A DNA stretch of 64,000 nucleotides from Trypanosoma brucei (taxonomy: Eukaryota), in contig CP000071.1 in NCBI GenBank assembly GCA_000002445.1, positions 1,536,001-1,600,000 of the forward strand, in the 5' to 3' direction. Under the pieces are notes generated by a model, which had not been told where the DNA came from, did not search any database, and saw only the letters and a list, made by a program, of their open reading frames with translations. Made by a program: the position numbers and the translations under genes. This document shows positions 1-51,503 of this stretch, piece after piece (position 1 is the first letter of the stretch; every line of letters begins with the position of its first letter).

Positions 1-361
1 GTTTTTCTTTCAGAGATTTTACGTATACACTCGCGTCGCGTAGATCTCCATTTGGCTTCCATCCTTCCACTGCCCACGAGATTCTACACACACACAAACA
101 CGTGTGTGTGTCAAGAGAGAGAGAGAAGGAAAAAAAAAGGAATTTATCGTACCCCGGTCAAGTAAACCATATTCTGTTTATATACGGACGTTGAGCCGGT
201 GGGGTCCTGGTTCCATTCCACGCGGAATAACAGATTTAAGGGGACCTTAACTGAGCAATAAAACGTCTGTGACTACTGCTTCTTAACGCAAACCTGCTGA
301 CCAGCCTGTGGTAGGTTAACTGCCGTTACGTCCATATAACTTGAAGCTGAAATCGGAACTA

Positions 362-13690: not shown

Positions 13691-16600
13691 ATGATGCGCC
13701 GAGTGGCTTCGACTGGAAGCAATGGGGGACATTGTTACGTTGGTTCGTCCTTGTGGGCAGACAGTGTGTATATGGAGGTTTCCTCCATAACTTTACAGAA
13801 GCGTTTCTCCTTCAAGTATGCAACAAAGCTTCAGCACGACGAAATGCGGCAGCCGTATTACATCCATGAAAAACGCTACGGCATCTTTAGTAACGAAAGA
13901 AACATAGCCAAAGCGAGGCGCGGTCTTCCCTTCATCACTCCCCTCTACACGAAGCATATGAATCTTTGGGATACCGACACAGACGCTAGCAACAATCGTT
14001 TCTTCAGAGGCTATTATTATGGCCAGCGGGAGCTGCACCAGTTACTTGGGCGACCCCACAGTCTCGAAGCAACGAACGCTGATGGCAGCAACGACTTGTC
14101 CACGTACGAGGCCAACACAAGCCAATTATACAAGGGCATACCGCGACCTGCTATAACGAATCTACACTATGAGCCCGCGTGGCGCTATACATTATACCAA
14201 GCAGGTGCGCACGGAGCGCAGCTCTCCAACCCACGTAGTCCCTTCACCGCCAAAGTGCTTGGTGACGAATTGATGCAAGTGCGCGACATCAAGAGCGTAG
14301 AGCATTGCAAAGCTTGGTTTGATCGTTTGCAGTACCTCATCAACTTACACTATGAGGCGGTAGGTGACATTGGAGAGTTCAAGTCTCGTCACACCCGACA
14401 CGTGCACGAGTTCTTCGTTGCCTTTCACGATGCACTGAGCAGCCTTGACTTTCGTGATACGTACCTATTCGACCAGTTCAAGGCGGTCCGCCCTCCGGAG
14501 TTATCGGATCTATTTGGCATCTTCCTTGAGATGGAAGCCAACTACGTTCATGAAGACTATTGCCCCCGGTGCAGTCTACCGTACAGCACTACCCGTTACT
14601 GTGGTGAAGGGGATGTGGATACGCCGTTCAGAAAGCACCGTGGGCGATGGGCCCCTCATCAAAAATGGGGACGTGAGTGGTATGACGTTGTGGCACGTCG
14701 TGCAGAGGCCTTATGGTACCGTGCAACGGAGGACCCATACTTTGGGACACCGCAGCATACCCAGCGACAGGCGGAGGCACTGCTGAAGGTGTATGTACAG
14801 GCGAAGCAACGGGGAAAGGCAATTGATTTTATGAATAAGCTACGGGGAAGTGTAGAGTACCTGACAGGGGACATAACCATCACAACAGTCATGCAAGAGT
14901 CCTATGACGCGCTGCTCGACACAACACCTCATCCACACCTTTTAACAAACGGCTTCACACTGGAGAGTGATGCGGCGAAGTACACTGGAGAAGTGAACAA
15001 GGCGCCGCTTTCTCCGTTGCAATTTCGTATCGACATGGAAATGAACAAGTACCGCAGACAGCAAAAAGAAGAAGGTGTTGTTCGTGTTCCACCCGCCTTG
15101 TGGCGTCTGGATACATCTGCAATTGTACCATACAAGGTTGATTCCAAGACAAGACGCATCGTTAACTGGCGTGAGGTAAAGGAGGGCATCGAAAAATCAT
15201 TCCTCTCCGTGGGGCTGCCGAAGGAGGCGTATACTGGCAACGAGTGGCGCGAGATGTTGTACTTGCATGATGTTATTGCTAACCGAGAGGCCAAGGCGGC
15301 GGTGTTGGAGCAGCAGCAGAAGCTTGACCGCGAGAAATTGAAAGCCCGAGAAAGAGCTTCATTGAAGGGTGAGAAAAGCAGCAACAGTGCCAGCAATGGC
15401 ATTGGCATTATATTCCCCGATAAAGATGGCTATCAGGTTTTCTTCGTAGACGAGGCATCCCTTCGACCTTTTGGTATTGGGGCCTCCGGAACACTGTTCA
15501 AAGCCGTTGCCCGCGTGTACCCCTCGCCCGCGGCGGTGCCGTACGACGATCCAGTCCATGGAAAGCAGTTTCTGATTGACACAACAGATGAAACATGCCA
15601 CCTTTTTGGCGGCTTTGAACATGGTGATCGATTACTACTACGTGCTAAGAGTAGTGGAGGTGATGTTGATGGTGGTAACAATAGCAATTGTAGGAATACC
15701 GGTAGCTTTACCGACGAGGAAGAGGAGGTAATAGTGATGGGTGTTAGCACAGAAGGCAGCGATGCGGAACGAATGTTGTGCGCCATGCACGTGGATACTG
15801 GGAAGCAGCGGGAGCGTGGGATTGTTTTCCTTGGAACCGACTGCATTGACATACGCGAGCGATGGGAGTCGGTTCGCTATGCCGCATCTGCGTATGTGAA
15901 GGGGCGTGTGACGTTGTTGGAATCGCAGCGAACAGCGCGAGAAGAATTTATGGGACAGGTGGTTGGTATTCGCGACGGTGTGTTGTTTGTGCAGTGGCGG
16001 CTTCTGAAAGGTGGCGGGAGCGTTCTTGATCGCAGTGTTGCGGTACCTATTGGGGACTCAACTCAAGTGCGTGAACTGTTTGTTGAGACAAAGGTGCTTG
16101 GTGTTGAACCGTTGCAGTCGCCACCCTCGTGGCGAACACCATTTCGGAATGACTTTGCGGAAGAGCGTCTTAAGGAGTTGCAGCGGGCGCCCTTCAAGAG
16201 GGAAAAATATGTCTCTCTAATTCAGGGTAAGTACACACCGAAGGTTAAGAAGTTTGGCTACACTCAGCACACAACTGTGGATGACTTCGAAACGAAGGAG
16301 TATAAAGACCGACTGCTCTCGAAGCAGTTCTTCCAAAACCCACAGGCTTTTGAGGTAGTCCCTGACCGGAACGAGCGCAGTGTGCAGTTTGGTGGTAAAT
16401 GGGAATATCAACGAACGCATGGCCTTCCAACTGTCGATCGAAACGAACTGGAAAACGGGTGGAGCGAGGTAGAACCAATTAGCGACGGCGAGATGAAAGT
16501 GATTGAGCAAGCGCTACGCGACATCAGTGGTCCCCGTCCTGGAAACTTTGTTAAACCGCCTAGCAAAACAAAATCACTTCAGTTGAGCGAAAGTTGGTGG

Positions 16601-19057
16601 GAACCACTTGGGTACGGTTGGGAACAACACAATGAGGAACAGAAAGCGTTGTGCGATGTAACTGAGCAGCGGCTTATTGACGGTTCAAATCTACCATTCG
16701 GGGGGAAATTGCCACCGTTTGGGACTTCATACGGTATGGGTGAACGTATGCGCGCAATCATTGAGGATTACTCGAAGGGATTCGGACTAGGGCCGCACGG
16801 ACACTCGCCGACTCACGACACAATACATTACAACACATTAAATGCTGAAGGTGAGCGTGTGCGTGATTTGGGTTACACTGATGCACTTGGACGTCTTTTC
16901 AGCGAGAAACTTGGGGACAGGGACGTGCACCAGTGGGCTGTGGAATCATGTGCCGATGGCGAAGCGGATGTGAGGCAGCTCCTACTCTCGTTGCACGAAT
17001 GGCGCGAGCGTGGTAGGCCGCCGTCGCTGTTACTGGCTAATGTACTGTCAAAGTATCTTGAGGAAGAGATTGCTGCGTTTAACAAGGGCATTCCTGAAAA
17101 TGCACCCAAGCTTCAACTTGAGACATCGGATGGTACGTTAGCCCACAGCGGAAGCGGTGGGTCGCGAAGTGGAACGATGTGGGCGGATGTTGATCCAACA
17201 ACTTTTGCTTTGCATCAGGCCAGTCAAAGCATCCGCAGCACTAGATGTGATGAACCCTTTATCCTTCACCTTGTGAAGCGTGCGAAGTTGGGCGAATGCG
17301 TCACGAACTTCACAGATACTGCGTACATCGCCCACCTCGAAAGTTCTGTTATCAATGAATTCCACTTGGCCCTGACGAAGCTAGTTGGGAAGGGCATATC
17401 CCCGACCTTGCTTGCGCAGAAAACTGGGCAGTTACACCGTGGTTCGGTGCGAGTGGGTGGAAATGTAGTCCCGTTTGTGAAAAGCCGGGAGTTGTCAAGA
17501 CTCCTGGAGCGTATGGGGCTCACATCGGAGAGCATTGCTGTTATCACGCGCGGGCTTGCCAATTGCCCGGAGCAAGAGTCTGTTGGCGATGACTTCGCAG
17601 TGCCCGTATCGCTGATCCTTTCATGGGACGGTCCCGGGAGCAGCGGTGGCAGTGGCAGTGGTGACCGCCGTCTCAACACCACCGCCGTCCGCAACGAACA
17701 GCAACGTAAGGGTTCTGCGGCTCTTTCTAGTGCCATACGGCAGCTCAGCCAACATCAGAAGCAGCGTGGTAGTGCTTCAGGCAGAGGCTGGCAAAACGAG
17801 GACAAAATGGTTGTTCACGTTCTGGAGGAACTGTCGTTACGAAATGATGGCCTAGTGATGGACATCCAATATGCAATTCGTGAAAACAAGAAAAATCGTC
17901 GCCTACGGTGGGAGTTCGTTACCACACTTCTTCCTGTTTTTGGTGGTAACGAAGCTAAAGTGGAGCAGCTGTACAGTGATTACTGCGACGGGAAGTATGT
18001 GCCCAACATTACGGTAGCTGTAGAAGCTTTCATTGCCTTTCTGCACAACGCTACGCAGCACCCGGAGACGTATTCAGCTTCAGACTACTTCGACATTGAT
18101 GACGGTAAGAGTTCAACTGCTAGCGGCACCGGTGACCAACCCTCTGCTGGACAGTACACCACCCTGAAGCTACTCGATCCGTTGGAGGGTCCATTCGTTT
18201 TTGACAACGTAAAGGTGGAATATATCCAGACTGTGGAGCGATTTAGGCGCCATGGGATTCGGGCTGGCCCAGTTATGGCACCCGCAACCGGATTTATTGC
18301 GGCCAACTGCAAGTCGTTGAACTACTTTACTCGGCGGCAGGAGGAGGTGGTATACGTCACAAATGATTCCGATCAGGGATTGCGGCGGTCGCTAGAAAAC
18401 AGTGCGTATCACAAGACGATAGCGGCCAACCCCGCGTTGCAGTATTTGCTCAAAGCTCGGCGCGGAGCAGCCTTGGTTGAGACGTTTAACCGATTCTTCT
18501 ACCGGACAATGCCTATGCTTAACTTTTACCAGAACGTGCTTAAACACTACTCAGAAACAATTCAACCGCTCCGACAGGCAGCGAAGAGCAGTACACGCGG
18601 TTTGGCGCGGGCACTGGAAAGTGAGCGGTCCGCTGCAATGGAGGAGTTTCGTCGGAACAGCGAGCGATACTGGAGGAATATTATTGAGGGTCGTAGTGTG
18701 GAGCAGGTCGTGCTGGCAAACGGTGAGTCAAATAGGCGGACCGTCGGTGGTGGTGCCGGTGAGCAACTGCAGAAACCGCAGGGCAACCATGATGCCGTAA
18801 GAACGAACTTTACTGGCGAAGCGACAGATGGAAGCAGGAAGGGGCAGAGACAACATCAGCAACCACCGTTGTCGCAACAACAGCAGCATTCCCGTGGCGA
18901 GGGGGAGCGAAGTGCCGTTCATACTTCTCCCCGACAAGGTGGGTCCCGGGGTATGGCGGATTTGCTGTCCAGACTGAATACACCCAAAACGGGATCAGGT
19001 GTAAAGGGGAGCACTGCAAAAAATACCGGTAACAATAGACGTGGACCAAAATCCTGA
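13691..19057 (+). CDS. Very large hypothetical protein of about 1788 aa. The track ORF starts at a GTG at 13595; the first ATG is at 13691 ('MMRRVASTG...').
   Basis: A continuous 5.4 kb ORF. Positions 13595–13690 are purine-rich and read like a 5' UTR, not coding sequence. There are no recognisable catalytic motifs. Acidic and Ser/Gly-rich low-complexity stretches lie toward the C-terminus. Confidence 0.6.
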   Translation: MMRRVASTGSNGGHCYVGSSLWADSVYMEVSSITLQKRFSFKYATKLQHDEMRQPYYIHEKRYGIFSNERNIAKARRGLPFITPLYTKHMNLWDTDTDASNNRFFRGYYYGQRELHQLLGRPHSLEATNADGSNDLSTYEANTSQLYKGIPRPAITNLHYEPAWRYTLYQAGAHGAQLSNPRSPFTAKVLGDELMQVRDIKSVEHCKAWFDRLQYLINLHYEAVGDIGEFKSRHTRHVHEFFVAFHDALSSLDFRDTYLFDQFKAVRPPELSDLFGIFLEMEANYVHEDYCPRCSLPYSTTRYCGEGDVDTPFRKHRGRWAPHQKWGREWYDVVARRAEALWYRATEDPYFGTPQHTQRQAEALLKVYVQAKQRGKAIDFMNKLRGSVEYLTGDITITTVMQESYDALLDTTPHPHLLTNGFTLESDAAKYTGEVNKAPLSPLQFRIDMEMNKYRRQQKEEGVVRVPPALWRLDTSAIVPYKVDSKTRRIVNWREVKEGIEKSFLSVGLPKEAYTGNEWREMLYLHDVIANREAKAAVLEQQQKLDREKLKARERASLKGEKSSNSASNGIGIIFPDKDGYQVFFVDEASLRPFGIGASGTLFKAVARVYPSPAAVPYDDPVHGKQFLIDTTDETCHLFGGFEHGDRLLLRAKSSGGDVDGGNNSNCRNTGSFTDEEEEVIVMGVSTEGSDAERMLCAMHVDTGKQRERGIVFLGTDCIDIRERWESVRYAASAYVKGRVTLLESQRTAREEFMGQVVGIRDGVLFVQWRLLKGGGSVLDRSVAVPIGDSTQVRELFVETKVLGVEPLQSPPSWRTPFRNDFAEERLKELQRAPFKREKYVSLIQGKYTPKVKKFGYTQHTTVDDFETKEYKDRLLSKQFFQNPQAFEVVPDRNERSVQFGGKWEYQRTHGLPTVDRNELENGWSEVEPISDGEMKVIEQALRDISGPRPGNFVKPPSKTKSLQLSESWWEPLGYGWEQHNEEQKALCDVTEQRLIDGSNLPFGGKLPPFGTSYGMGERMRAIIEDYSKGFGLGPHGHSPTHDTIHYNTLNAEGERVRDLGYTDALGRLFSEKLGDRDVHQWAVESCADGEADVRQLLLSLHEWRERGRPPSLLLANVLSKYLEEEIAAFNKGIPENAPKLQLETSDGTLAHSGSGGSRSGTMWADVDPTTFALHQASQSIRSTRCDEPFILHLVKRAKLGECVTNFTDTAYIAHLESSVINEFHLALTKLVGKGISPTLLAQKTGQLHRGSVRVGGNVVPFVKSRELSRLLERMGLTSESIAVITRGLANCPEQESVGDDFAVPVSLILSWDGPGSSGGSGSGDRRLNTTAVRNEQQRKGSAALSSAIRQLSQHQKQRGSASGRGWQNEDKMVVHVLEELSLRNDGLVMDIQYAIRENKKNRRLRWEFVTTLLPVFGGNEAKVEQLYSDYCDGKYVPNITVAVEAFIAFLHNATQHPETYSASDYFDIDDGKSSTASGTGDQPSAGQYTTLKLLDPLEGPFVFDNVKVEYIQTVERFRRHGIRAGPVMAPATGFIAANCKSLNYFTRRQEEVVYVTNDSDQGLRRSLENSAYHKTIAANPALQYLLKARRGAALVETFNRFFYRTMPMLNFYQNVLKHYSETIQPLRQAAKSSTRGLARALESERSAAMEEFRRNSERYWRNIIEGRSVEQVVLANGESNRRTVGGGAGEQLQKPQGNHDAVRTNFTGEATDGSRKGQRQHQQPPLSQQQQHSRGEGERSAVHTSPRQGGSRGMADLLSRLNTPKTGSGVKGSTAKNTGNNRRGPKS

Positions 19058-19688: not shown

Positions 19689-22600
19689 ATGCCCTTGTCT
19701 GGGGGCTCCAACCAATGCAGCAACTACACTGACAGAAATAATGGTAGTGATGGTGTTAGTGGTGAGGGTGTTGGTATTGACGGAGGATCAGATGTGGGAA
19801 TAGAAGTGGACGTTTCCGCGTGGCTGGTGAACATGCCGCAGTTGGGTGATTTGTGGCCTCGGGTCGAAGAATATCTCACTCAGTCGGCAGCGAAAATTCG
19901 GAATAGTGGTGCTTACACGAAGGACCCACTAAAAGGTATCAGACATCGTATGAGCTGGTATGCTGTCATATACTACGCTTGTGCTGGTCATCCGCAGAGG
20001 TTCTGTGAAATCTATCAGTACTTGGCTTTGTTTCTACTCAACGATTTGGAGACGAATGCCCTCCCACCCGTTTTATCAGCGGTTGCCACATATGCGGACA
20101 CTAATCCTGAATTTGACGTGGTCGCGAGAAGGGAAGGTTTTGAACCCCCATTGCGTCCGAATAGGAGTTTGTTGCAGGAGTTTGTTCATCAGTTTAGGTT
20201 GTTTATGTTATTCCGTCGTGTCGTCCTGTCATGCTTCGGATACCTTGACCAGTGGTACACGGAGAAGTTCCATCTCGATCCTGTTTCTGATCTCTGCGTG
20301 AAAATGTTTTATGTTGTTGTTTATGAAAGGGTCAGAGACGAGCTGGCGAGTGAGATTGTACATTCAGCCAATCAAGCAAGGGGATTAAGCGACGGGCCAA
20401 GCGATGACGACCCGTCAAACGCGTGTTTAGATGTTCAAGTAGCTCTTGCAGTTGTGTCCGAGATCGTATCGACTGTGAGGGCGTCTTCTACCAACACCGA
20501 GGCAGGTGTGGTGCACTGCGGACCACTTGGCAAGGAGGGTTCAAACCCCAGTATTGATGGGGGAAGGAGTGATGACGTTGAAGTTGAAGCTGGTACTTCA
20601 GCACCCTGCCAAACGGGAACATCGCCATGGGAACTCGTGCCGGACCGTATCCCGTTGCTGCGTGAGAAACTTGAAAGTGGTTCCCTTATGGAATTCCTGA
20701 AGAGCTTGTCGTCGTCAACAGGGGGTAACCAGTGTGGCGGCGCGAAGGTTGATGGTCCGTCTGCAGCGAGGCCATCAGGTGCAGCTTGCGGAGCACTACT
20801 TGGAGGCGCGCATCCGGCACGTTCTTTTATAGTAAGTCTTGTCCAACCACTACATACGCTTCTTCTCGATCAATTCGGCACACGCTATGTGCGTGCTGCC
20901 GAAGCGTACTACCGGAAGGAGCGCAGTGTGCATCTCGCCACCAGGGAGGGCAGAAGTGGTTATGTGACGTGGGTGCGCTCCTGCTACAGATTGGAGCAGT
21001 TATTAGTGAAAGATATGCGTGCACCGTTCTTTCACGACCTGCTACGTGCGCGTCTACACCGTGTATTGTTGCTGGAAGTGCACAGCGAAATTATCCTCGA
21101 CGACGAGTTTGGTTTTCGGGCGCTGTTGGATGCATGGAGCGCACAAACAAGTCCGCATTTCGGTGCTCTACGAAAAGACTTCCTGAAACCGGTGGTAGTA
21201 TCGTCCCCGTCATCGTCACTCGAAGAGACCGTCCACGAAATTATGGATAGGTGTGATTGTGCTTCTTCATTGCAACACATTGGAAAGGCCGCTGGGTCGA
21301 TGCAACCGATGCGTGAAGGGCTTGCATCCGCTTTGGGACTGCTTGTCACAACCTTTGCCGACACACAGAGTGAAATATGCATTGCACTGCTGCGCCATGA
21401 ACTCGCCAATAAGGTGGTGATGGATTCTGTGCCCCTTTTGGCCACATACTTTGTGATGGAGGAGAAACACCATTTAGGACACATCCACCCAAAGGGGCGA
21501 CAAACTAATGACGTGGAACCCGCGTTTTTGCGAGATATGGCGAAACTAGTCGTGGGCGGCCTTGTTGACATGGTGGCACAGTACGGTAGCCTTGTACAGG
21601 TGCAGTTCCATTCCCTTTCATCAATGCTCGTCGCTGTGCGTGATGCACTTCGTGAAGTCCTCAATCCACATCGGTGGGAGCGGCATACCGTCGACACACG
21701 GTCGGGGGTAAACGTCAACAGTGGTAAATTTAGTGACATGCTCCTCTTAGACGCGGAGCGACAACAGCCTCCTCAGATCCACGGTTACGAACCCACGAGG
21801 GGTGCACGTGCAGCCCTCCGCAAACTGGCCGCTATGCGGGATGGGCGTTCGATACCGATGTCGCGGCTGGTTGCGGTTTACTGTGACGTTTTGGTTTCAC
21901 AAAGCGGAACCCGCGGTGTTGCTGTTACCGCGGACAAAGAAACTGAAATTGGGGGGAAATGCGTGTCGCTGCCGGAAGGGAGTGATAGTACGAGTGATAT
22001 AGATAGTGTAACAGCCCTTGCCGCACTCCTTGATGACAAAGACGTGTTTCTTGAGGAATACAAACAACTATTAGCGCGCCGTTTGATAATCTTGTCGTCT
22101 TCATTGTCACTTTCTCCCTCAGCACTTCCCACAGAGCTGTGTACGAAACCTAATGCAGAGTACGAACACGCTATGATTCGTGAACTGCGAAGAACCTTTG
22201 GGCGGACTTCAACCCTAACCCTGAAGATGATGTTGCACGACTACACCCTAAGCTGCGCCATGGGGAGTGCATTTCGTCAAACCCCTTCTGCACAGCAACT
22301 GAAATCCGGGATAAATGTTCAAGTGATCACCGGTGCGCGGTGGCCAACATACAGCACCGTGCCTCTCTTACCTTGCACTTCACTCGCAGCAGCCATATCA
22401 ACATTCAGCACATACTACGCTGCGGCACATCCATTACGAACGCTCTCCTGGATACACTCGCAGGGCACCGCTAACCTTGAGGCCTTGTTTCCAAATGGTT
22501 CGAAGGAAATTGTAGCAGATACGATACAGTCGAATATCCTTATTCTGTTGAGTGATGCATACAATACCGTGCGACGCAACCGTGACAGTGAGAGTCGGAG

Positions 22601-23174
22601 AGGAGTGGGTGAAGGTAAGTCGACAAAACGCTATTTAACTGGGCAAGAAATTGCTTCTGCCATGGGGATGAGTTTTGAGAACCTTTACGCCTACCTTAAC
22701 CAGCTTGTACACCATACGAGTTACAAGCTAATTACCCGGGTGCCATCCCCTAACCCTGATCCCGCTGTTGATCCAAATGAGGCATCGGTGCGTCCAGAAT
22801 ATGGCTACACTATTAACGTGGATTTTAAGCACAGTTCAAACAGTTTTAGGCTTCCAGTCCCTCATCCACGCTGGAATCAGAAGGCATCTGGGGGCCATCG
22901 TGTGGTTGGTGCGGATGCCATGGCTGCTTCACAGACATTCGCTCTGGTGACTGAAAGTACGCGACGCCTACAGGTTGACGCTGCTATTGTGCGGACCATG
23001 AAACGGCACCGTTCACTCCCTTATCATGAATTGATGAGCACGACGGTGCAGGAGCTCTCGCGGTTCTTCGTCCCCAGCACCCAATTCGTGAAGGTGCAGG
23101 TAGAAGGTCTCATAGCACGAGAGTTTTTGAAGCGAAACGAAGCAAATTCACAATTACTCGAGTACGTTGTGTGA
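19689..23174 (+). CDS. Cullin-family protein of about 1161 aa, greatly expanded relative to the ~750 aa of canonical cullins. The track start at 19686 is a TTG; the adjacent ATG is at 19689.
   Basis: The C-terminus 'DAAIVRTMKRHRSLPYHELMSTTVQELSRFFVPSTQFVKVQVEGLIAREFLKRNEANSQLLEYVV' matches the cullin winged-helix neddylation region (consensus DAAIVRIMK.RK.L.H..L..EV..QL..RF.P....IKK.IE.LI.REYLER......Y.Y.A). The motif 'VITGARWP' matches the cullin 'VLTTGYWP' signature. Confidence 0.75.
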   Translation: MPLSGGSNQCSNYTDRNNGSDGVSGEGVGIDGGSDVGIEVDVSAWLVNMPQLGDLWPRVEEYLTQSAAKIRNSGAYTKDPLKGIRHRMSWYAVIYYACAGHPQRFCEIYQYLALFLLNDLETNALPPVLSAVATYADTNPEFDVVARREGFEPPLRPNRSLLQEFVHQFRLFMLFRRVVLSCFGYLDQWYTEKFHLDPVSDLCVKMFYVVVYERVRDELASEIVHSANQARGLSDGPSDDDPSNACLDVQVALAVVSEIVSTVRASSTNTEAGVVHCGPLGKEGSNPSIDGGRSDDVEVEAGTSAPCQTGTSPWELVPDRIPLLREKLESGSLMEFLKSLSSSTGGNQCGGAKVDGPSAARPSGAACGALLGGAHPARSFIVSLVQPLHTLLLDQFGTRYVRAAEAYYRKERSVHLATREGRSGYVTWVRSCYRLEQLLVKDMRAPFFHDLLRARLHRVLLLEVHSEIILDDEFGFRALLDAWSAQTSPHFGALRKDFLKPVVVSSPSSSLEETVHEIMDRCDCASSLQHIGKAAGSMQPMREGLASALGLLVTTFADTQSEICIALLRHELANKVVMDSVPLLATYFVMEEKHHLGHIHPKGRQTNDVEPAFLRDMAKLVVGGLVDMVAQYGSLVQVQFHSLSSMLVAVRDALREVLNPHRWERHTVDTRSGVNVNSGKFSDMLLLDAERQQPPQIHGYEPTRGARAALRKLAAMRDGRSIPMSRLVAVYCDVLVSQSGTRGVAVTADKETEIGGKCVSLPEGSDSTSDIDSVTALAALLDDKDVFLEEYKQLLARRLIILSSSLSLSPSALPTELCTKPNAEYEHAMIRELRRTFGRTSTLTLKMMLHDYTLSCAMGSAFRQTPSAQQLKSGINVQVITGARWPTYSTVPLLPCTSLAAAISTFSTYYAAAHPLRTLSWIHSQGTANLEALFPNGSKEIVADTIQSNILILLSDAYNTVRRNRDSESRRGVGEGKSTKRYLTGQEIASAMGMSFENLYAYLNQLVHHTSYKLITRVPSPNPDPAVDPNEASVRPEYGYTINVDFKHSSNSFRLPVPHPRWNQKASGGHRVVGADAMAASQTFALVTESTRRLQVDAAIVRTMKRHRSLPYHELMSTTVQELSRFFVPSTQFVKVQVEGLIAREFLKRNEANSQLLEYVV

Positions 23175-23610: not shown

Positions 23611-26600
23611 ATGCTCAGAACTCGCTTGTCACTTGTCAGATTCAGTTTCCCACAGAGCACATTACGCCGGTGCTTCACACGGGGAAGCGAGGCGAGGAGG
23701 CCCACTTGCAACGGTGCACTGCCGAATACATGCCACTGGTCATTGTTGCGACACAATAGCAATGGTAGCGATGCAAGTAAAGGTTCGGCGGCGATGGAGG
23801 AGATAGCACCAGAGATGGTGACAATAGAAATTCTACCAGTGGAGGGGGATTATCCCCTCCAAACTGACGGAGACTGTGACCGCAGCGGTGGGAGTTCGCA
23901 CAATAGTCGCGGCAGCGATGGCATGACTGGCGGTGTGGACGTTGCATCCAAACGCATGCAGCAACAGCAATATTGGGATGTAACGAGCATCGATCACTTT
24001 TCTAAGAGCCGGGTGCTAAACTACGTCCGCCGGACCGGTAATCAATCCGCTAATGTTTTTGACATCAGTGAGGAGCAGATGTTTGGGAAAACGGTCTACC
24101 GCGCGCGGTGCAAACTGCCGCTGCCTGCTCCGCATCATTTATACCTAGCTGAAGGCGTAGGTGAGGATGAGCGAGATGCGGTATTACTTGCTGCAATGCA
24201 CGCGGAACGTGTGTGTGATGCGTTGGGTGTTCCGCTTTTCCGTCTACCACTCATGCAGAAAAAGCATGCGGATAATGCACGGCGGCAGGGGCGTTATGCA
24301 CCCATACCTGGGGATCCCATCAAACCGGAGAATACAATTACACCACCACCTCTGCGGATGGTCTCGGTCCCTAACTGTCAGGCGAAGTCAGAAGTAAAAC
24401 AGGTCTTTTCTTCGTCGATTGCCGAAGCGGAAATTATCAGTGATGACGGCCCACCTGGTGTCCGTTCTTCTTATGCAGCTGGAAGGAAACTAGAGTCTGT
24501 AAGAACAGCAGCACCTGCATCTGGCAGTACTCTCCCAACTGCTGTTGCCGATAATAAGAAAAAAGAAGAGGAGATTGAGGAAGATATGGATGGAGGGAGC
24601 AGCGAAACTTTATACCACACGACAGTGCACTACCCATGGCTCACCCCCAGTGGACGAGAGGGTATTGGAGATGGAGTAACGGGGACGGTAGCGGGATCGA
24701 TGAGTATTCCCCCGGCATCTGCCGCCTTTGACCCGACAGAGGGTGGGCTGTGGCAGATGGTTAACACAACTTCTACTCGGTGCTCCCCTTCCCCAGATGC
24801 GCTGTTGTTGCCGTGTGTATACGAGGCGGCAGCACACGGGCGAATGAAGGATCACTTTCTTCAACAAGGAATGTCCCTCAAGGATCGCGTAACTTTCACC
24901 CATGTGGCCGTCGCCAATCACTCGACACGGATGTACGTAGCGGAACTCTTCCTCCATGACACTGTAGTGGCGCGTGGCAAGGCACAGACAAAGGAGTGTG
25001 CGGAGCATCTTGCGGCTATGCATGGGGAATTGCTTCTGGATGCTCTCGCTCGACCTCTTTTCCCTCAGGACCCTGAGCGTCAAGCGCGGCACGCTGAAGC
25101 CGTCGCACGGTTTGGTCGTTGGGCCCCAAACCCCAAGACGGGTGACTTGCAACACCCGCGTCTGCACGACGTATTGCCCTTACCCCTGAAGCAACAAGTG
25201 GGTGGTGATGATGTGTGGATGGACCCAATGGTCTTGCGGCGCTGCGGTTACCAACGCAGCATGAGTGAGCGAATGATATCTTCACACATTGAAATCAATA
25301 ACTACTGTGGGGATTACATTGAGGCAAACCCCGACCCCGCTCTGTTAGAGGAGGCACGGCGGGCGCTGGAAGTGTGGCAACGTGATGTTGCCCGCAATCC
25401 GCATCCCGATTTGTTTGTAATCACCCGTATGGGTGATCAATTCCGTGCGAGTACTCTACTTCCTGTCCCCAAGGAATTTGGCATTCGTGGGGGAAATGGA
25501 GTGGGAAAAACGATGGAGCAAGCGATGGATTTATGCGCCCTACATGCTGTGGATACACTCTGCGCACTTGGTGTTCCCCTCTTTACAAACCGCAAGAAAC
25601 AGGAGGCATTTGTTGAAGCAAGACGGAAAAGGGGGCTCGTAACCGCGGACGTCATGGGAGGTTTGAAGAAAAAAAACGGACTGGTCGCCATTATTGCCCC
25701 GTCACTACGATCAGAGGGTGATACAGCATCAGCGAACGCTTCGGTGGGGTGCGCTGTCGGCGCGGGTGGCAGCGATCGGGTGAAGAAGGAGAGACCCCCT
25801 TATTTGCCTGGTTACATGGTTGAGGGCAACCAGCCACGACCGCTGCCGCACATCTGCGATACGCTTCGTATATTACAGCTGCGCATCCCGGAAGACTTCA
25901 CGGTGTATGGGGAAGGGCTTACCGATGAGTCCATTATAGAGGTAGGCAATGAGGCGAAGGTATGCGTTCAGAATTACCTGAGACAGCATTTACCAAAGAA
26001 TGCCAATGTGAATGCGTCTGTTTACATAACGGGCTATGGCAGGCAGGTTAGCGTTCACAATATTGCCTACCTTCCACTTGTTTTGCCGCGACGGAGAGAA
26101 GGTGCAGTAGGAAGGGGCAAAGTTGTTGGTGAGGACACAAGCACCAAAAATTCCACGCCATCAGTAGCAAAAACAGCGGATGGTGAGTTAAAAGAAAGAA
26201 ATGAATCAAAGGGTGCGGAAGGCGCCGCTACAACGTCGCTTTGTGTGGCAGGCAAGACAGGAAGTGAAGAAGTTGAGTCGTCTCAGGTCCACAGCGGGGG
26301 GACGCAAGATGGGGTGGAGAACCCTAAAGAGCGTGGGGAACCAACAGAGCGTCTTCTGGCGATTGGAATTTCGCTTAAGAAGAAGGACGCGGAGAGAGTG
26401 TGTTATCTTCATGCTGTTGACATTCTCCGAAGGAATGGTGTGGATGTGCTCTCAACCTACCGTGCGGGGCTTCCACGCCGCAAGGGATTGCAATCACCAA
26501 CACAATCTCCCTCAACAGCGGGAGAGGAAACGAGGGGCGGTGGTGGTGGTGCGGTGGCAGACGTAGCGACTTCAACCAAGCCCATGGTGAAGTGCAACGA

Positions 26601-26757
26601 AGAGTGTAAGAAGCCTCAAACTGGCGGAGAGTCGGGGCAGCCACCAGCACTTCCCAAGCCGTACATGCATAAACTCATGAAAAACTTCATGGAAAGCGGA
26701 AAGCATTATACACCACCAAAGCGACGATCATCTCCCAGTCCTCACTCACCCTTTTGA
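23611..26757 (+). CDS. Probable mitochondrial protein (1048 aa) carrying four dsRBD-like repeats.
   Basis: The ATG was checked. The N-terminus 'MLRTRLSLVRFSFPQSTLRRCFTRG' is Arg/Ser-rich and amphipathic, like a mitochondrial presequence. Four repeats end in the dsRBD C-terminal-helix signature G.G.(S/T)K..A...A...A...L...GVPLF. They are '...GVGEDERDAVLLAAMHAERVCDALGVPLF', '...RGKAQTKECAEHLAAMHGELLLDALARPLF', '...GVGKTMEQAMDLCALHAVDTLCALGVPLF' and '...SLKKKDAERVCYLHAVDILRRNGVDV'. Each is preceded by beta-strand-like segments; for example 'SRVLNYVRRTGNQSANVFDISEEQMFGKTVYRARCKL' resembles dsRBD helix-1 through beta1–3. Confidence 0.6.
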   Translation: MLRTRLSLVRFSFPQSTLRRCFTRGSEARRPTCNGALPNTCHWSLLRHNSNGSDASKGSAAMEEIAPEMVTIEILPVEGDYPLQTDGDCDRSGGSSHNSRGSDGMTGGVDVASKRMQQQQYWDVTSIDHFSKSRVLNYVRRTGNQSANVFDISEEQMFGKTVYRARCKLPLPAPHHLYLAEGVGEDERDAVLLAAMHAERVCDALGVPLFRLPLMQKKHADNARRQGRYAPIPGDPIKPENTITPPPLRMVSVPNCQAKSEVKQVFSSSIAEAEIISDDGPPGVRSSYAAGRKLESVRTAAPASGSTLPTAVADNKKKEEEIEEDMDGGSSETLYHTTVHYPWLTPSGREGIGDGVTGTVAGSMSIPPASAAFDPTEGGLWQMVNTTSTRCSPSPDALLLPCVYEAAAHGRMKDHFLQQGMSLKDRVTFTHVAVANHSTRMYVAELFLHDTVVARGKAQTKECAEHLAAMHGELLLDALARPLFPQDPERQARHAEAVARFGRWAPNPKTGDLQHPRLHDVLPLPLKQQVGGDDVWMDPMVLRRCGYQRSMSERMISSHIEINNYCGDYIEANPDPALLEEARRALEVWQRDVARNPHPDLFVITRMGDQFRASTLLPVPKEFGIRGGNGVGKTMEQAMDLCALHAVDTLCALGVPLFTNRKKQEAFVEARRKRGLVTADVMGGLKKKNGLVAIIAPSLRSEGDTASANASVGCAVGAGGSDRVKKERPPYLPGYMVEGNQPRPLPHICDTLRILQLRIPEDFTVYGEGLTDESIIEVGNEAKVCVQNYLRQHLPKNANVNASVYITGYGRQVSVHNIAYLPLVLPRRREGAVGRGKVVGEDTSTKNSTPSVAKTADGELKERNESKGAEGAATTSLCVAGKTGSEEVESSQVHSGGTQDGVENPKERGEPTERLLAIGISLKKKDAERVCYLHAVDILRRNGVDVLSTYRAGLPRRKGLQSPTQSPSTAGEETRGGGGGAVADVATSTKPMVKCNEECKKPQTGGESGQPPALPKPYMHKLMKNFMESGKHYTPPKRRSSPSPHSPF

Positions 26758-28713: not shown

Positions 28714-31700
28714 ATGGATCCGCACCCAACGCCACTGAATCCCGATGCCACATGGGATGACAATGGCTTACTATTTACGCTCCTGATGGGTGCTTTTGCA
28801 TTTATAGGACTCGGTGCCGTTAGTGCTTTCACAGTGTATGCACCATCGATGTGGTTGCGCCGTGTCTTTCGGTTAAATCATACTGCTGTTGTTCTTGTTG
28901 AGGAAGAGCCCCTTGGTGGTGATGTGGAGACACTCCAGGCTCCCGATGACAAGGAACCGCGATATCGGAGAGTTGGATGTGCTCTTCCTTATCCATGCTC
29001 ACTGTTCGTTTTACCCAGTTGGAAGTGCTGGCTGAGTGTAGAGGAAGAGGTGGAGGGTCTGGAAAATGTTTTTAAACCTTTAGTCGATTCAGAAAGTGGT
29101 AACCCCGCGGGTATCGGCGACAACGCAGACGACAGGGGAAGCGCAGTGGGTGATGATGATGAGACGGCTCCACTTACTCGGGACCACATTTCCAGTGAGT
29201 ACCCGGCCACAGTTGAGGTTGACATAGAGGGTGTTTCCTCTGGAAGTCCAGTAGGCAACGTGCCGTCCCGGACGAATGGCGCACCAAAAACACCATTGGA
29301 CCCGCATGTTGCAGTCTACCTGTACTTCCTGAAGTTGTTCTCGACCGTGTTTATCCTAGGTTCTTGCATCAATTTGTGGATCTGTGTCCTGGCGGGAACA
29401 GACGATTATCGGGAGAAGAGTATGGTAAGCATGGATGAGAAGCATTGTGGTGCGCAAGGGAGTAACAGAACTGGGTGCATGGAACTCATGCCGTACTGCC
29501 ACTACACGGATGCAGACACCTGCGTTCCTGTGCCCCTTCACGGTATTTATGATCTGACAGTGAGGAACATTACACCGAACAGCTGGCGTTTGTGGTTTGT
29601 AGCTCTCCTTGATATGGCGTTTTGTTTGTTTTTTATTGCGGCCATCGTCTATTACCTCCGGAAGGTGGATAAATATGTTGAAACAGTGATGCGACACCAG
29701 ATGGAGTGCGCAGTTGGCCATCGAGTAGCGATTGTTGGCGGGTTAAAAGGGAGGGTATTAACGGAGGCGGCGTTTCGGCGACGTTATCTTCAGGAGGACT
29801 CGTACTTTGGCCCAAACAGGCGTGGCGTGAATACCTTTCGCTATCCAGTCGCTGTCGCAAATGCGCTCATGGGTGGAACACTGAGCGTTGATGACGGTGA
29901 TACGTATCATCAGTATGATTGTGGCGGATTGAGTTGTATCTTTTCGTCTTGTTTTTTCACTCGGTACAAAACAACACGGTCAAACGCCGTTTTCCTGCAA
30001 GATGGGAGCGTTCGGCGCATGCTATTCCCACGTGACCCACCACCCGGTATGTACACCTATATGGACAAAACTGAGGAAGCGATGGAGGGCCTGCAGGAGG
30101 CCGTCGCCGATTACAAGGTTTTTCACAAGTTAGCGAATCACGTGAGTTACAAGAAGCGGCAGGAGTTGCACAAAAAACTGCTTCTCGTGCGTGCTTCTTT
30201 CCCGTTCTGTTTCAGCATGATATCCAAAGTTGACTACTGGAAAAAGGCCTTCATTGAGCGGGCAACAAAGCTGAATCGTTTTGTAGATGAGGTACCTGCT
30301 AGGAAACCTAAGGGGATTGCTTATGTTGTGTTTGACAATTCACTCGCAGCCTACGAGTTTGTAAACCTTTTTTACGCCCAGCACAGAGGAGCTTCAGGCA
30401 CATGGGCGGCCATTGCAGGCCCCTCTAATGGCATAATCGAAATGAACATCACAACGAACCGACAAGTGGGCTGGGTGCGGCGTATTGTGGTCGCTGTGAT
30501 ATATATTTTAATGTTGCTGTTTTGGTCTGTCCCTGTCGGTTTTCTGAGTTCCATTGACAATATTTCCAAAATCCCCGGAATGGGATGGCTCTCTCGAGAT
30601 TCTTCCAAGTTGCCTGAAAATGTCCGAAGTGCTATCGCAGCTCTTCTACCGGTTGGTGTGCTCGCGTTGTTTAACATAGCACTCCCTTATATTGTCCGCA
30701 TTCTTGCCATTGCCATGGGGGTAATAAACATGTACGAGCGTGAGGAGTGTGCATTACACCTACAGTACCTTTTCATGGTCCTTACTGGTGTCATATTTCA
30801 GGCTCCGCTTCAAAACGGCATGGAAGAGTTGAACCGCTTGATTACAGAAATATCGCGCGATAGCATTGCAAAGCTTTTCGTAACTTTTGTAACTCCGGAG
30901 GGAGGTTATTGGTACACGAAGGTTGTTATGGGCTTGTGTGTATCCACATGGGTTGCATTTCTCAACCCTGGGACGCTGACTCTGGTTGTGCTGCAGCACA
31001 AGCTGGCGAATGTGCAGCGTGTGTACAACGAACTCTTTGGTCCTTGTCTGTTCGAGTGGCCGCACCTGTACAGCTTCGATCTTTCCCTATTAGCCATGGG
31101 GCTTCTCTTCCACATGACTGTTCCGTTGCTTTCGTTTTTTGTTGGCATCTACTTCGTTGTGCGCTACTTTACGCAGCGTGGCATGCTGTACGACCGTTAC
31201 CGCCCTGAAAATCATCCGCGTCAGGACTGTACCCCATTCGGTGCGGCAGGAATGGTTATTCGTGCAGCTTGTTGGTTGTATTGCTTAGGCGCAGTTGGCG
31301 GGGTGTTGTTCATGAACGAATTGGATCATTTGGGTGGACTACTCATTTGTTCTGTTTCGTTTACCCTGAGTGTGATCCTGTTGGCCTACACACACATCAC
31401 AACTCGTCGATGGATCGCTACCTTACCTAATGCACGGAGACTCCTCAGGAACAGAGTACCTCGCTCAGTCCAAACGCAGTATGGCACCTCCCGCAGCGCC
31501 GACAATGTGGTGGCCCCTAAGTTACCTAACCCCAAACCACCAGCACGTGCAGAAGAAGAACGCAGGGAGGCTGATAGCGCCGTCACTTTCCAGGGAGCAA
31601 CATTGCCTGTTGTGCCAAGAAAACAGTATTCCATGGAAACGTTGGACTTGGGCTTCGACGGCGTCGCGGGTCCGACACATTGCGCGCCAACGACGTCACT

Positions 31701-32028
31701 CCTCTGGCAAAGCCGAGGGATGCAAAGCTCCCCGGTAGGTTCAGTTTGTAACCTCCAAGACCCTGACGGTACCGAAATGGAAGGTGTGGTTGAGTGGGAT
31801 GCCGCACCTGATGCGGAAGACGATATGCTTTATCACAGAATGTCCCTATTGCCACACAATCCTAATGTGGATTCCCGCTACAATCCCAGACACCAGCAGC
31901 TTCAGCGCATAAACATCACACGTGAGATTGAGCGGTTAGAGGAAACCATATTCCATGTGGAACGTTACTGGGACGCTCCGTACTCAGAAGTCAACCCGGA
32001 AGAATGTGGCATCATAGAACAGCGGTAG
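28714..32028 (+). CDS. Multi-pass membrane protein of the DUF221 / CSC1 / OSCA / TMEM63 family (calcium-permeable, stress- or mechano-gated cation channel fold), 1104 aa.
   Basis: The ATG was checked. 'GIAYVVFDNSLAAYEFVNLF...TWAAIAGPSNGIIEMNITTNRQVGWVRRIVVAVIYILMLLFWSVPVGFLSSI' aligns to the OSCA1/CSC1 'AFVSFK..W.AAVCAQ...W....AP.P.DV.W.NL.....R....V.....FF...P..FV.SL' cytosolic RRM-like domain and the following TM. 'LAMGLLFHMTVPLLSFFVGIYFVVRYFTQRGMLYDRY' aligns to OSCA 'FLLGLVYAPVTPMLLPFILVFFALAYIVYRHQIINVYNQEY'. Multiple predicted TM helices are present. Confidence 0.7.
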   Translation: MDPHPTPLNPDATWDDNGLLFTLLMGAFAFIGLGAVSAFTVYAPSMWLRRVFRLNHTAVVLVEEEPLGGDVETLQAPDDKEPRYRRVGCALPYPCSLFVLPSWKCWLSVEEEVEGLENVFKPLVDSESGNPAGIGDNADDRGSAVGDDDETAPLTRDHISSEYPATVEVDIEGVSSGSPVGNVPSRTNGAPKTPLDPHVAVYLYFLKLFSTVFILGSCINLWICVLAGTDDYREKSMVSMDEKHCGAQGSNRTGCMELMPYCHYTDADTCVPVPLHGIYDLTVRNITPNSWRLWFVALLDMAFCLFFIAAIVYYLRKVDKYVETVMRHQMECAVGHRVAIVGGLKGRVLTEAAFRRRYLQEDSYFGPNRRGVNTFRYPVAVANALMGGTLSVDDGDTYHQYDCGGLSCIFSSCFFTRYKTTRSNAVFLQDGSVRRMLFPRDPPPGMYTYMDKTEEAMEGLQEAVADYKVFHKLANHVSYKKRQELHKKLLLVRASFPFCFSMISKVDYWKKAFIERATKLNRFVDEVPARKPKGIAYVVFDNSLAAYEFVNLFYAQHRGASGTWAAIAGPSNGIIEMNITTNRQVGWVRRIVVAVIYILMLLFWSVPVGFLSSIDNISKIPGMGWLSRDSSKLPENVRSAIAALLPVGVLALFNIALPYIVRILAIAMGVINMYEREECALHLQYLFMVLTGVIFQAPLQNGMEELNRLITEISRDSIAKLFVTFVTPEGGYWYTKVVMGLCVSTWVAFLNPGTLTLVVLQHKLANVQRVYNELFGPCLFEWPHLYSFDLSLLAMGLLFHMTVPLLSFFVGIYFVVRYFTQRGMLYDRYRPENHPRQDCTPFGAAGMVIRAACWLYCLGAVGGVLFMNELDHLGGLLICSVSFTLSVILLAYTHITTRRWIATLPNARRLLRNRVPRSVQTQYGTSRSADNVVAPKLPNPKPPARAEEERREADSAVTFQGATLPVVPRKQYSMETLDLGFDGVAGPTHCAPTTSLLWQSRGMQSSPVGSVCNLQDPDGTEMEGVVEWDAAPDAEDDMLYHRMSLLPHNPNVDSRYNPRHQQLQRINITREIERLEETIFHVERYWDAPYSEVNPEECGIIEQR

Positions 32029-51410: not shown

Positions 51411-51503
51411 TTGGAGGATTGGCCAAACGAAGCGGACGAGCGGTCGCATGCTTTTCGGCTACTAAAGTTCATTTAGAAATATATAACGGCACGCGGCTCT
51501 CAC

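What the first reader, a model, noticed from the sequence alone, without database searches (positions are those of the whole stretch)
19689..23174. Giant, highly divergent cullin with insertions totalling about 400 aa
The C-terminal neddylation winged-helix ('IVRTMKRHRSL...VEGLIAREFLKRNE...YVV') and the 'VITGARWP' motif identify a cullin. At about 1161 aa it is roughly 50% longer than canonical CUL1–5. Extra acidic and low-complexity segments lie in the N-terminal cullin-repeat region, for example 'GLSDGPSDDDPSNA...' and 'SNPSIDGGRSDDVEVEAGTS'. Both the adaptor-binding N-terminus and the spacing to the RBX-binding region are therefore atypical. The Lys in 'TMK' is at the expected NEDD8 acceptor position.
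Basis: partly seen in the sequence, partly recalled or inferred. Interest (0 to 1): 0.5.

Follow-up and report, generated by a model that had tools for sequence, protein, structure and literature searches.

The report
Known oversized trypanosome cullin, TbCul-C
This is the already annotated and published Trypanosoma brucei cullin Tb927.8.5210 (TbCUL3/TbCul-C): a complete ubiquitin-ligase scaffold made about 50% longer than usual by floppy loop insertions, so the reading is correct but the gene is not new.

Summary
Window 19689..23174 (+) is one uninterrupted 1161-aa ORF.

The protein is identical to XP_847351.1/Q57UJ3, "cullin, putative", of T. b. brucei TREU927. From its neighbours it is Tb927.8.5210, published as TbCUL3 (2017) and TbCul-C (2025). 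That work found it low in abundance, with no interaction partners.

Against a profile of 70 canonical cullins it is collinear from end to end. The net ~390 extra residues sit at about ten loop sites spread along the whole protein, not only in the N-terminal region. Most coincide with low-confidence, Gly/Ser/Pro-rich, poorly conserved segments of an AlphaFold model. The folded core of that model overlays full-length CUL1, CUL2 and CUL5 (TM up to 0.77).

The adaptor-binding helices, the RBX-binding domain and the NEDD8 lysine are conserved in all 13 trypanosomatid orthologs. Those orthologs are all oversized, reaching 2202 aa in Leishmania major and 2306 aa in Leptomonas through low-complexity expansion at the same sites. 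The "CUL3" label is not supported.

Verdict: a real and correctly read feature, but an already known gene. The one modest addition is that the whole orthogroup shows this loop expansion.

The parts
19689..23174 (+). Complete CDS of Tb927.8.5210 (TbCUL3 / TbCul-C), 1161 aa plus TGA stop
   Evidence: uninterrupted ORF; identical to XP_847351.1/Q57UJ3; locus identity from the neighbours and by elimination of Tb927.8.5970.
19689..19847 (+). N-terminal extension (aa 1-53), Gly/Ser/Asp-rich, poorly conserved and predicted disordered
   Evidence: 53 residues lie before the first profile match; pLDDT below 50 for aa 1-43; identity across orthologs 0.12-0.26.
19851..20384 (+). Cullin repeat 1 (aa 55-232), including the conserved adaptor-binding helices H2 (about aa 85-100, RHRMSWYAVIY) and H5 (about aa 172-213, FRRVVLSCFGYLDQ...KMFYVVVYE)
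   Evidence: matches canonical profile positions 17-165 (52 bits); many invariant residues across 13 orthologs (M88, W90, Y91, C98, G100, V178, V179, C182, F183, L186, D187, Y212).
20082..20156 (+). Insertion site A (aa 132-156), a loop inside cullin repeat 1
   Evidence: 25 aa inserted after profile position 89; the same site spans about 560 aa in L. major and about 680 aa in Leptomonas.
20451..20843 (+).
   Evidence: 131 aa inserted after profile position 185; pLDDT below 50 for aa 268-319 and 336-389. L324 and L328 nearly invariant.
20850..21908 (+). Cullin repeats 2-3 (aa 388-740), with insertions at aa 500-546, 562-610 and 663-719
   Evidence: the model is confident and helical apart from aa 502-508, 600-608 and 667-696, so part of the 'inserted' sequence here is extra or longer helix rather than disorder.
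21987..22868 (+). Cullin-homology C-terminal domain (four-helix bundle, alpha/beta RBX-binding domain, WH-A; aa 767-1060), with small insertions at aa 808-822, 957-979 and 1022-1031
   Evidence: this is the best-matching region to human CUL1, CUL3 and CUL4. DKDVF...LARRL and VQVxTxxxWPTY are conserved in all orthologs.
22323..22346 (+). VITGARWP motif (aa 879-886), aligned to the canonical VLTtgfWP at the start of the alpha/beta domain
   Evidence: W885 and P886 are invariant.
22962..23144 (+). WH-B / Cullin_Nedd8 domain (aa 1092-1152)
   Evidence: PF10557, E 5.2e-18; pLDDT 85-94.
23001..23003 (+). Codon of K1105, the predicted NEDD8-acceptor lysine in IVRTMK
   Evidence: aligned with the IVRIMK lysine of canonical cullins; invariant in all 13 orthologs; the codon translates to K.

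Best explanation
The ORF is Tb927.8.5210 (TbCUL3/TbCul-C), a genuine cullin scaffold of a cullin-RING ubiquitin ligase. It has the full canonical architecture: three N-terminal five-helix cullin repeats, a four-helix bundle, the alpha/beta domain that captures the RBX1 N-terminal strand, WH-A, and a WH-B domain carrying the NEDD8-acceptor lysine K1105. The ~390 extra residues are lineage-specific insertions at about ten inter-helix or inter-domain loops. Most are Gly/Ser/Pro-rich, poorly conserved and predicted disordered. They should protrude from the scaffold without changing the distance between the adaptor end and the RING end. Inferred mechanism: an adaptor not yet identified docks on the conserved H2/H5 surface of repeat 1, TbRbx1 binds the C-terminal domain, and neddylation of K1105 activates ubiquitin transfer. 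The same loops are oversized in every trypanosomatid ortholog and have grown to hundreds of Ala/Ser-rich residues in Leishmaniinae. That pattern fits tolerated low-complexity expansion at permissive sites better than gain of a new domain. Shown here: identity, domain content, collinearity, positions and nature of the insertions, conservation. Inferred: RBX1 and adaptor binding, ligase activity, and that the inserts have no effect on geometry.
For: Pfam Cullin and Cullin_Nedd8 hit above threshold. Human CUL1/2/3/4/5 are matched in the PDB. Collinear alignment to a 70-cullin profile scores 376 bits in total. The AlphaFold model (pTM 0.63) overlays full-length CUL1, CUL2 and CUL5 over about 1120 alignment columns, with TM 0.72-0.77 normalised to the target. 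Low-pLDDT segments coincide with the profile insertions, are enriched in Gly (14% against 4%) and Ser, and are half as conserved as the core (0.21 against 0.46 identity to T. congolense). K1105, the WP motif, DKDVF/LARRL and repeat-1 H2/H5 are invariant or nearly so in 13 orthologs from Trypanosoma to Leptomonas. The exact sequence is annotated as cullin. Literature: a review of Liao et al. 2017 states that all six T. brucei cullins were validated as TbNedd8 substrates (PMC7600729); the protein was expressed as a tagged product (PMC12816148). The orthologs carry no Pfam domain other than the two cullin ones, and the L. major inserts are 50-84% Ala/Ser/Gly/Pro/Thr.
Against: [quoted passage not shown] The structural model rests on a shallow alignment of 13 sequences, and AlphaFold may default to the canonical cullin shape. 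Some 'inserted' stretches (aa 510-557, 562-597, 701-717) are predicted as confident helices, so not all the extra length is disorder. I could not read the primary neddylation paper, so inclusion of this particular cullin among the 'six' is inferred from that laboratory's TbCUL1-6 naming (PMC5241021).
Confidence: 0.85

Rival explanations
1. It is a degenerate or repurposed cullin-like protein that no longer forms a cullin-RING ligase. On this view it keeps the fold but has lost its RBX1 and adaptor partners, which would explain the empty immunoprecipitation and the low abundance.
For: No partners were recovered with tagged TbCul-C, whereas four other T. brucei cullins pulled down TbRbx1 in the same study. 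The sequence evolves fast even in the core (46% identity to T. congolense, 32% to L. major).
Against: The residues that matter only for ligase function are the best conserved: K1105 and its IVRxMK context, the WP strand of the alpha/beta domain, DKDVF/LARRL, and repeat-1 H2/H5 are invariant or nearly so across 13 orthologs. None of the 24-25 substitutions among T. brucei subspecies falls after residue 977. Low abundance and a C-terminal 3xHA tag next to WH-B are plausible technical reasons for an empty pull-down. This cullin is reported as neddylated (second-hand).
Confidence: 0.1
2. It is the trypanosome ortholog of CUL3 and uses BTB-domain adaptors, as implied by the names 'TbCUL3', 'similar to CULLIN3' and the T. 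cruzi annotation 'putative cullin 3'.
For: With the single sequence, human CUL3 is the top PDB hit (64.9 bits against 61.1 for CUL1).
Against: The margin is under 4 bits and reverses with the orthogroup profile: CUL1 182.9, CUL4B 177.2, CUL4A 175.5, CUL3 164.9, CUL2 156.4 bits. Foldseek ranks CUL1, CUL2 and CUL5 ahead of CUL3. The published phylogeny places it in a kinetoplastid-specific clade outside the CUL3 clade and found no BTB partner.
Confidence: 0.04
3. The long ORF is an artefact: two genes fused by a frameshift or assembly error, or a mis-called start.
For: The N-terminal 43-53 residues are unconserved, and a second Met lies at residue 50 just before the conserved region, so the true start could be M50.
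Against: The ORF is collinear with a single cullin profile, with no duplicated or foreign block. Identical-length copies occur in four other T. brucei-group assemblies, and there are 12 single-protein orthologs. Using M50 would shorten the protein by only 49 aa and leave it at 1112 aa.
Confidence: 0.01

Closest known systems
TbCul-C / TbCUL3 (Tb927.8.5210) of Trypanosoma brucei, in the published cullin inventories (PMC12816148; PMC5241021; PMC5507466)
   Same: It is the same gene. The protein is identical to XP_847351.1/Q57UJ3 on the 2.48-Mb chromosome 8 record. It is not Tb927.8.5970, whose NEDD8 lysine is K686. It lies three genes upstream of the multi-pass membrane protein Tb927.8.5240.
   Different: Nothing differs in the sequence. 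The papers I could search do not mention its length, the insertion map or the even longer Leishmaniinae orthologs ('insertion' and 'longer' have 0 occurrences in PMC12816148).
Canonical cullins CUL1-CUL5 (e.g. human CUL1, PDB 1LDJ/1U6G)
   Same: Same domain order and fold: three cullin repeats, four-helix bundle, alpha/beta domain, WH-A, and WH-B with the IVRxMK lysine.
   Different: About 390 net extra residues at about ten loop sites, only 13-15% structure-based identity, no specific affinity to any one of CUL1-5, and no known partners.
Giant metazoan cullins CUL7 and CUL9/PARC
   Same: They are much longer than CUL1-5 while retaining a C-terminal cullin-homology and neddylation region (from general knowledge).
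   Different: CUL7 and CUL9 owe their size to added folded domains (DOC/APC10, CPH, and in CUL9 an RBR module; general knowledge). Here no Pfam family other than Cullin and Cullin_Nedd8 is detected in the T. brucei protein or in orthologs of up to 2306 aa, and the extra sequence is low-complexity.
APC2, the cullin-like subunit of the anaphase-promoting complex
   Same: It shares the cullin-homology region (30.8 bits with the single sequence; 71 bits with the orthogroup profile).
   Different: It scores far below the true cullins (71 against 156-183 bits), and only the cullin-homology region aligns, not the WH-B region with the acceptor lysine that this protein has.

Membership tests
Cullin family (scaffold of cullin-RING ligases) | Cullin-homology domain (Pfam PF00888) | tested here: met
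   164 bits against a 33.2 cut-off, covering profile positions 169-618 of 620 in the best stretch; 376 bits against a 70-cullin profile.
Cullin family (scaffold of cullin-RING ligases) | C-terminal WH-B neddylation domain (PF10557) with the acceptor Lys in the IVRxMK motif | tested here: met
   65.3 bits against a 36.9 cut-off. K1105 aligns with the canonical lysine; invariant in 13 orthologs.
Cullin family (scaffold of cullin-RING ligases) | Elongated N-terminal stalk of three five-helix cullin repeats | tested here: met
   repeat 1 matches profile positions 17-165; the all-helical N-terminal model aligns over the full length to CUL1, CUL2 and CUL5 (TM 0.72-0.77 normalised to the target). This rests on a predicted structure, not an experimental one.
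Cullin family (scaffold of cullin-RING ligases) | Binds an RBX/ROC RING protein through the alpha/beta domain | not testable with these tools
   The strand motif VQVxTxxxWPTY is conserved, but the published immunoisolation did not recover TbRbx1 for this cullin.
Cullin family (scaffold of cullin-RING ligases) | Recruits substrate-receptor adaptors through repeat-1 helices H2 and H5 | not testable with these tools
   The H2/H5 sequences are among the most conserved blocks. No adaptor has been identified experimentally.
Cullin family (scaffold of cullin-RING ligases) | Is actually modified by NEDD8 | not testable with these tools
   Second-hand only: the review PMC7600729 reports that Liao et al. 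2017 validated all six T. brucei cullins as TbNedd8 substrates. The primary paper is not held.
CUL3 subfamily (BTB-adaptor cullins) | Specific sequence affinity to CUL3 over other cullins | tested here: not met
   the orthogroup profile scores CUL1 182.9, CUL4B 177.2, CUL3 164.9 bits. Foldseek ranks CUL1, CUL2 and CUL5 first; the published tree places it in a kinetoplastid-specific clade.
CUL3 subfamily (BTB-adaptor cullins) | Binds BTB-domain adaptors | not testable with these tools
   No partners are known.
CUL7/CUL9-type giant cullins | Extra folded domains (DOC/APC10, CPH, RBR) account for the added length | tested here: not met
   only Cullin and Cullin_Nedd8 are detected, even in the 1435-2306 aa orthologs; the extra sequence is low-complexity.

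The most novel reading that the evidence does not exclude
The loop hypertrophy may not be neutral. The same insertion sites are kept open in every trypanosomatid ortholog, reaching about 560-680 aa at a single loop in Leishmaniinae, and this is the one successfully tagged T. brucei cullin for which no interaction partner of any kind was recovered. The orthogroup could therefore be a self-sufficient cullin whose disordered inserts themselves dock substrates or regulators, or gate access of CAND1/CSN-like factors, in place of a conventional adaptor module.
Probability: 0.08. Interest if true: 0.55.

Novelty: already known. Interest (0 to 1): 0.2.

Why it matters
It matters little as a discovery. 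The gene is annotated, named twice in the literature, tagged and immunoprecipitated. The useful outcomes are mostly tidying. First, the window gene is tied to a published identity. Second, the "CUL3" label still attached to it and to its T. cruzi ortholog has no sequence support. Third, there is now a residue-level map of which parts are canonical cullin and which are dispensable-looking loops, which would help design constructs such as a loop-deleted or N-terminally tagged TbCul-C to find the missing partners. Fourth, the L. major ortholog (2202 aa, still annotated 'conserved hypothetical protein') and its relatives can be recognised as the same cullin. TbCul-C remains the one successfully tagged T. 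brucei cullin with no recovered partner, so it is a reasonable target for follow-up, but nothing here overturns expectations.

Tried and rejected
1. The look-up of encoding contigs with the exact protein returned nothing; the listing of cluster members gave the identity instead.

2. The word-indexed homolog search was weak for this low-complexity-rich query. The full-length query gave only 6 Trypanosoma hits. The C-terminal half gave only fragmentary fungal cullins and missed the orthologs. The exhaustive phmmer search was what revealed the orthogroup.

3. The supplements of PMC12816148 contain neither 'Tb927.8.5210' nor 'Q57UJ3' in the stored text, so I have no published mass or length for the protein.

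4. The primary neddylation paper (Liao et al. 2017) could not be read by DOI or PMC id.

5. The first Pfam call on six orthologs exceeded the residue limit and was repeated with five.

6. hmmalign in glocal mode pushed the N-terminal blocks of the longest orthologs into the flank (bottom rows), so for those species I rely on the per-domain hmmsearch coordinates.

7. My regular expressions for the neddylation motif missed several orthologs; inspecting the alignment directly showed the lysine in all of them.

8. I considered and rejected fusion or frameshift, CUL3 orthology, CUL7/9-type domain accretion and APC2 identity; see the rival explanations and the membership test.

9. I did not compare lengths with the other six T. 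brucei cullins, because their sequences were not retrieved. Only TbCul-A's K686 is known.
Full report
**1. The observation**

Window 19689..23174 (+) is one open reading frame of 1161 codons ending in TGA, with no internal stop. The mechanical ORF list starts it one codon earlier at a TTG. The first ATG is at 19689, and an in-frame stop lies six codons upstream.

- VITGARWP at aa 879-886
- IVRTMK at aa 1100-1105, which puts the lysine at K1105
- GLSDGPSDDDPSNA at aa 232-245
- SNPSIDGGRSDDVEVEAGTS at aa 285-304
- VEGLIAREFLKRNE at aa 1138-1151

Pfam gives Cullin (PF00888, 164 bits, cut-off 33.2) and Cullin_Nedd8 (PF10557, 65.3 bits, cut-off 36.9). A sequence search of the PDB returns human CUL3, CUL1, CUL4A/B, CUL2 and CUL5, with APC2 further down. 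K1105 aligns with the IVRIMK lysine.

**2. Which gene it is**

The protein is identical, residue for residue, to XP_847351.1 / UniProt Q57UJ3, "cullin, putative", of T. b. brucei TREU927, on a 2,481,190-bp record. I take that record to be chromosome 8.

The published inventory lists seven T. brucei cullins, two of them on chromosome 8: Tb927.8.5970 (TbCul-A/CUL1) and Tb927.8.5210 (TbCul-C) (PMC12816148). Tb927.8.5970 has its NEDD8 lysine at K686 (PMC5507466), so it cannot be this 1161-aa protein.

The neighbours give independent support. The third ORF downstream (28714..32028, 1104 aa, RSN1_7TM) matches Tb927.8.5240, published as a multi-pass "putative channel" that influences sensitivity to human serum (PMC4022737). 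The numbering 5210, 5220, 5230, 5240 fits the gene order cullin, dsRBD protein, cyclophilin, channel.

The gene is therefore Tb927.8.5210. It was named TbCUL3 by Hu et al. 2017 (PMC5241021), called "similar to CULLIN3" by Rojas et al. 2017, and named TbCul-C by Canavate del Pino et al. 2025.

What is published about it:
- It was HA-tagged at the C-terminus and is expressed at markedly low abundance.
- Its transcript is reported as up-regulated in procyclic forms.
- Immunoisolation gave no RBX, Skp1 or adaptor. [quoted passage not shown]
- Immunoprecipitation of TbCUL3 did not bring down WDR1.
- A review reports that Liao et al. 2017 validated all six T. brucei cullins as TbNedd8 substrates (PMC7600729). 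I could not read the primary paper.

**3. Anatomy**

I built a profile from 70 cullins of canonical length (730-830 aa) taken from the exhaustive search, and aligned the protein to it. The match is collinear from profile position 17 to 738 of 774. Repeat 1 (aa 55-232) matches positions 17-165, and aa 388-1160 match positions 188-738.

Insertions of 5 residues or more:

| Residues | Length (aa) | Location |
|---|---|---|
| 1-53 | 53 | N-terminal extension |
| 132-156 | 25 | loop inside repeat 1 |
| 255-385 | 131 | repeat 1/2 junction |
| 500-546 | 47 | repeats 2-3 |
| 562-610 | 49 | repeats 2-3 |
| 613-618 | 6 | repeats 2-3 |
| 663-719 | 57 | repeat 3 |
| 743-747 and 750-763 | 19 | junction with the four-helix bundle |
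| 808-822 | 15 | four-helix bundle |
| 957-979 | 23 | after the alpha/beta domain |
| 1022-1031 | 10 | C-terminal domain |
| 1067-1080 | 14 | before WH-B |

The extra sequence is, however, spread over the whole protein rather than confined to the N-terminal repeats.

An AlphaFold2 model built from a 13-sequence alignment has mean pLDDT 69.5 and pTM 0.63. Its segments with pLDDT below 50 are aa 1-43, 141-156, 268-319, 336-389, 502-508, 600-608, 667-696, 743-765, 804-819 and 1061-1079. These coincide with the insertions. In all, 301 residues are below pLDDT 50.

Those segments are enriched in Gly (14% against 4% in the core) and in Ser and Pro, and carry a net charge of -12. Their identity to T. 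congolense is 0.21, against 0.46 for the core.

Some "inserted" stretches (aa 510-557, 562-597, 701-717) are confidently helical. Roughly a quarter of the excess is therefore extra or longer helix within repeats 2-3, or reflects imprecise profile alignment there.

Foldseek against the PDB aligns the model over about 1120 columns to full-length CUL1, CUL2 and CUL5. TM-scores are 0.72-0.77 when normalised to the target, at 13-15% identity. The folded core is thus predicted to be a complete, canonical cullin arc.

**4. Relatives**

An exhaustive phmmer search of 1.84 billion representatives found a sharply separated orthogroup at E ≤ 2e-85, while the best canonical cullin scored 5e-45. Named members come:

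| Organism | Length (aa) |
|---|---|
| T. congolense | 1127 |
| T. brucei (this ORF) | 1161 |
| T. grayi | 1184 |
| T. vivax | 1212 |
| T. rangeli | 1214 |
| T. cruzi | 1234 |
| T. theileri | 1396 |
| Three unnamed assemblies | 1116, 1435, 1539 |
| Porcisia hertigi | 1898 |
| Leishmania major ("conserved hypothetical protein") | 2202 |
| Leptomonas pyrrhocoris | 2306 |

The T. brucei protein is therefore at the short end of an orthogroup that is oversized throughout.

Mapping every member onto the canonical profile shows that the same loops carry the extra length. The loop after profile position ~89 is 25 aa in T. brucei, about 560 aa in L. major and about 680 aa in Leptomonas. The repeat 1/2 junction and the repeat 2/3 region each grow to about 250-320 aa in those two species.

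The long orthologs have no Pfam domain other than Cullin and Cullin_Nedd8. The L. major inserts are 50-84% Ala/Ser/Gly/Pro/Thr with 10-20% hydrophobic residues, which marks them as low-complexity sequence rather than hidden domains.

The functional elements, by contrast, are conserved across all 13 sequences:
- K1105 is invariant, within (I/V)(R/K/S/Q)x(M/F/L)K.
- W885, P886 and Y888 of the alpha/beta strand motif are invariant.
- K784, F787, L795, A796, R798 and L799 of DKDVF...LARRL are invariant.
- Repeat-1 helices H2 (RHRMxWYxxIY..C.G) and H5 (FRRVVLSCFxYLDQ.Y...KxFYVVVYE) are among the most conserved blocks of the protein.

Among T. brucei-group copies there are 6-25 substitutions, no indels, and no change after residue 977.

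**5. Mechanism**

The best-supported reading is an ordinary cullin scaffold. An adaptor, still unknown, docks on H2/H5 of repeat 1. TbRbx1 is captured by the alpha/beta domain, and NEDD8 on K1105 activates the ligase. The insertions are tolerated disordered loops at permissive sites.

- Shown here: the fold class, the domain order, the position and nature of the inserts, and the conservation pattern.
- Inferred: partner binding, ligase activity, and that the inserts have no effect on geometry.

The main counter-evidence is the empty published pull-down. Low abundance and a C-terminal tag next to WH-B are plausible technical causes. The alternative that the protein has lost ligase function cannot be excluded, and I give it about 0.1. 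Selective conservation of exactly the ligase-relevant residues argues against it.

**6. Comparison with known families**

The protein meets the sequence and fold criteria of the cullin family. Biochemical criteria (RBX binding, adaptor binding, neddylation) could not be tested here.

The CUL3 label is not supported. The single-sequence preference for CUL3 is under 4 bits and reverses with the orthogroup profile, where CUL1 scores 183, CUL4B/4A 177 and 175, CUL3 165 and CUL2 156 bits. This agrees with the 2025 paper's placement in a kinetoplastid-specific clade.

It is not a CUL7/CUL9-type giant cullin, because no extra domains are present. It is not APC2, which scores only 71 bits, matches only the cullin-homology region, and does not align to the WH-B region that carries K1105.

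**7. Novelty and verdict**

In the papers I could search I did not find a description of three things: the residue-level insertion map, the oversizing of the entire orthogroup at shared loop sites (up to about three times canonical length in Leishmaniinae), and the identification of the L. major "conserved hypothetical protein" as this cullin. "Insertion" and "longer" do not occur in PMC12816148.

These are incremental points. Low-complexity expansion of Leishmania proteins relative to Trypanosoma orthologs is, to my knowledge, common. Interest is 0.2.

The most novel reading not excluded is that the inserts functionally replace or gate the adaptor module of this partner-less cullin. I give that a probability of about 0.08.

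Noticed in passing
window 49200-57400, tRNA at 51504-51576 (+): All large ORFs up to 49141 are on the + strand and all from 57473 onward are on the - strand. The gene-poor gap between them holds a single tRNA-Arg(ACG), and the GC skew changes sign there. This looks like a convergent strand-switch (transcription termination) region of the kind known in trypanosomes.
   Followed up: partly
window 28714-32028 (+): A 1104-aa RSN1_7TM (calcium-dependent channel family) protein. It matches the published Tb927.8.5240, a multi-pass membrane protein whose knockdown lowers sensitivity to human serum and whose localisation and role are unknown.
   Followed up: partly
window 13595-19057 (+), 5890-9477 (+), 341-3991 (+): Three very long ORFs (1820, 1195 and 1216 aa) upstream of the cullin have no Pfam match at E ≤ 0.001.
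   Followed up: no
window 23611-26757 (+): The 1048-aa ORF immediately downstream of the cullin has only a weak double-stranded-RNA-binding motif hit (dsrm, 29 bits, aa 423-471) and is otherwise unassigned.
   Followed up: no
window 39347-41200 (+): A 617-aa protein with three WW domains (E 5e-42) and no other confident domain.
   Followed up: no
P0026 (L. major XP_001682203, 2202 aa), P0027 (Leptomonas pyrrhocoris, 2306 aa), P0025 (Porcisia hertigi, 1898 aa): The Leishmaniinae orthologs of this cullin are two to three times canonical cullin length and are still annotated 'conserved hypothetical' or 'hypothetical protein'. The extra length is Ala/Ser-rich low-complexity sequence at the same loop sites as in T. 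brucei.
   Followed up: partly
window 19689-23174, compared with P0001, P0008, P0009, P0010: The TREU927 copy differs from the T. b. gambiense and T. b. equiperdum copies by 24-25 amino-acid substitutions (about 2%) with no indels. None falls after residue 977, so the WH-A/WH-B end is invariant within the species group.
   Followed up: partly
window 19836 (Met50 of the cullin): A second in-frame ATG lies just before the first conserved block, and the 43-53 residues upstream of that block are unconserved and predicted disordered. The T. congolense ortholog has only about 19 residues before the block. The annotated start may be right, but this was not checked against a splice-acceptor site.
   Followed up: no
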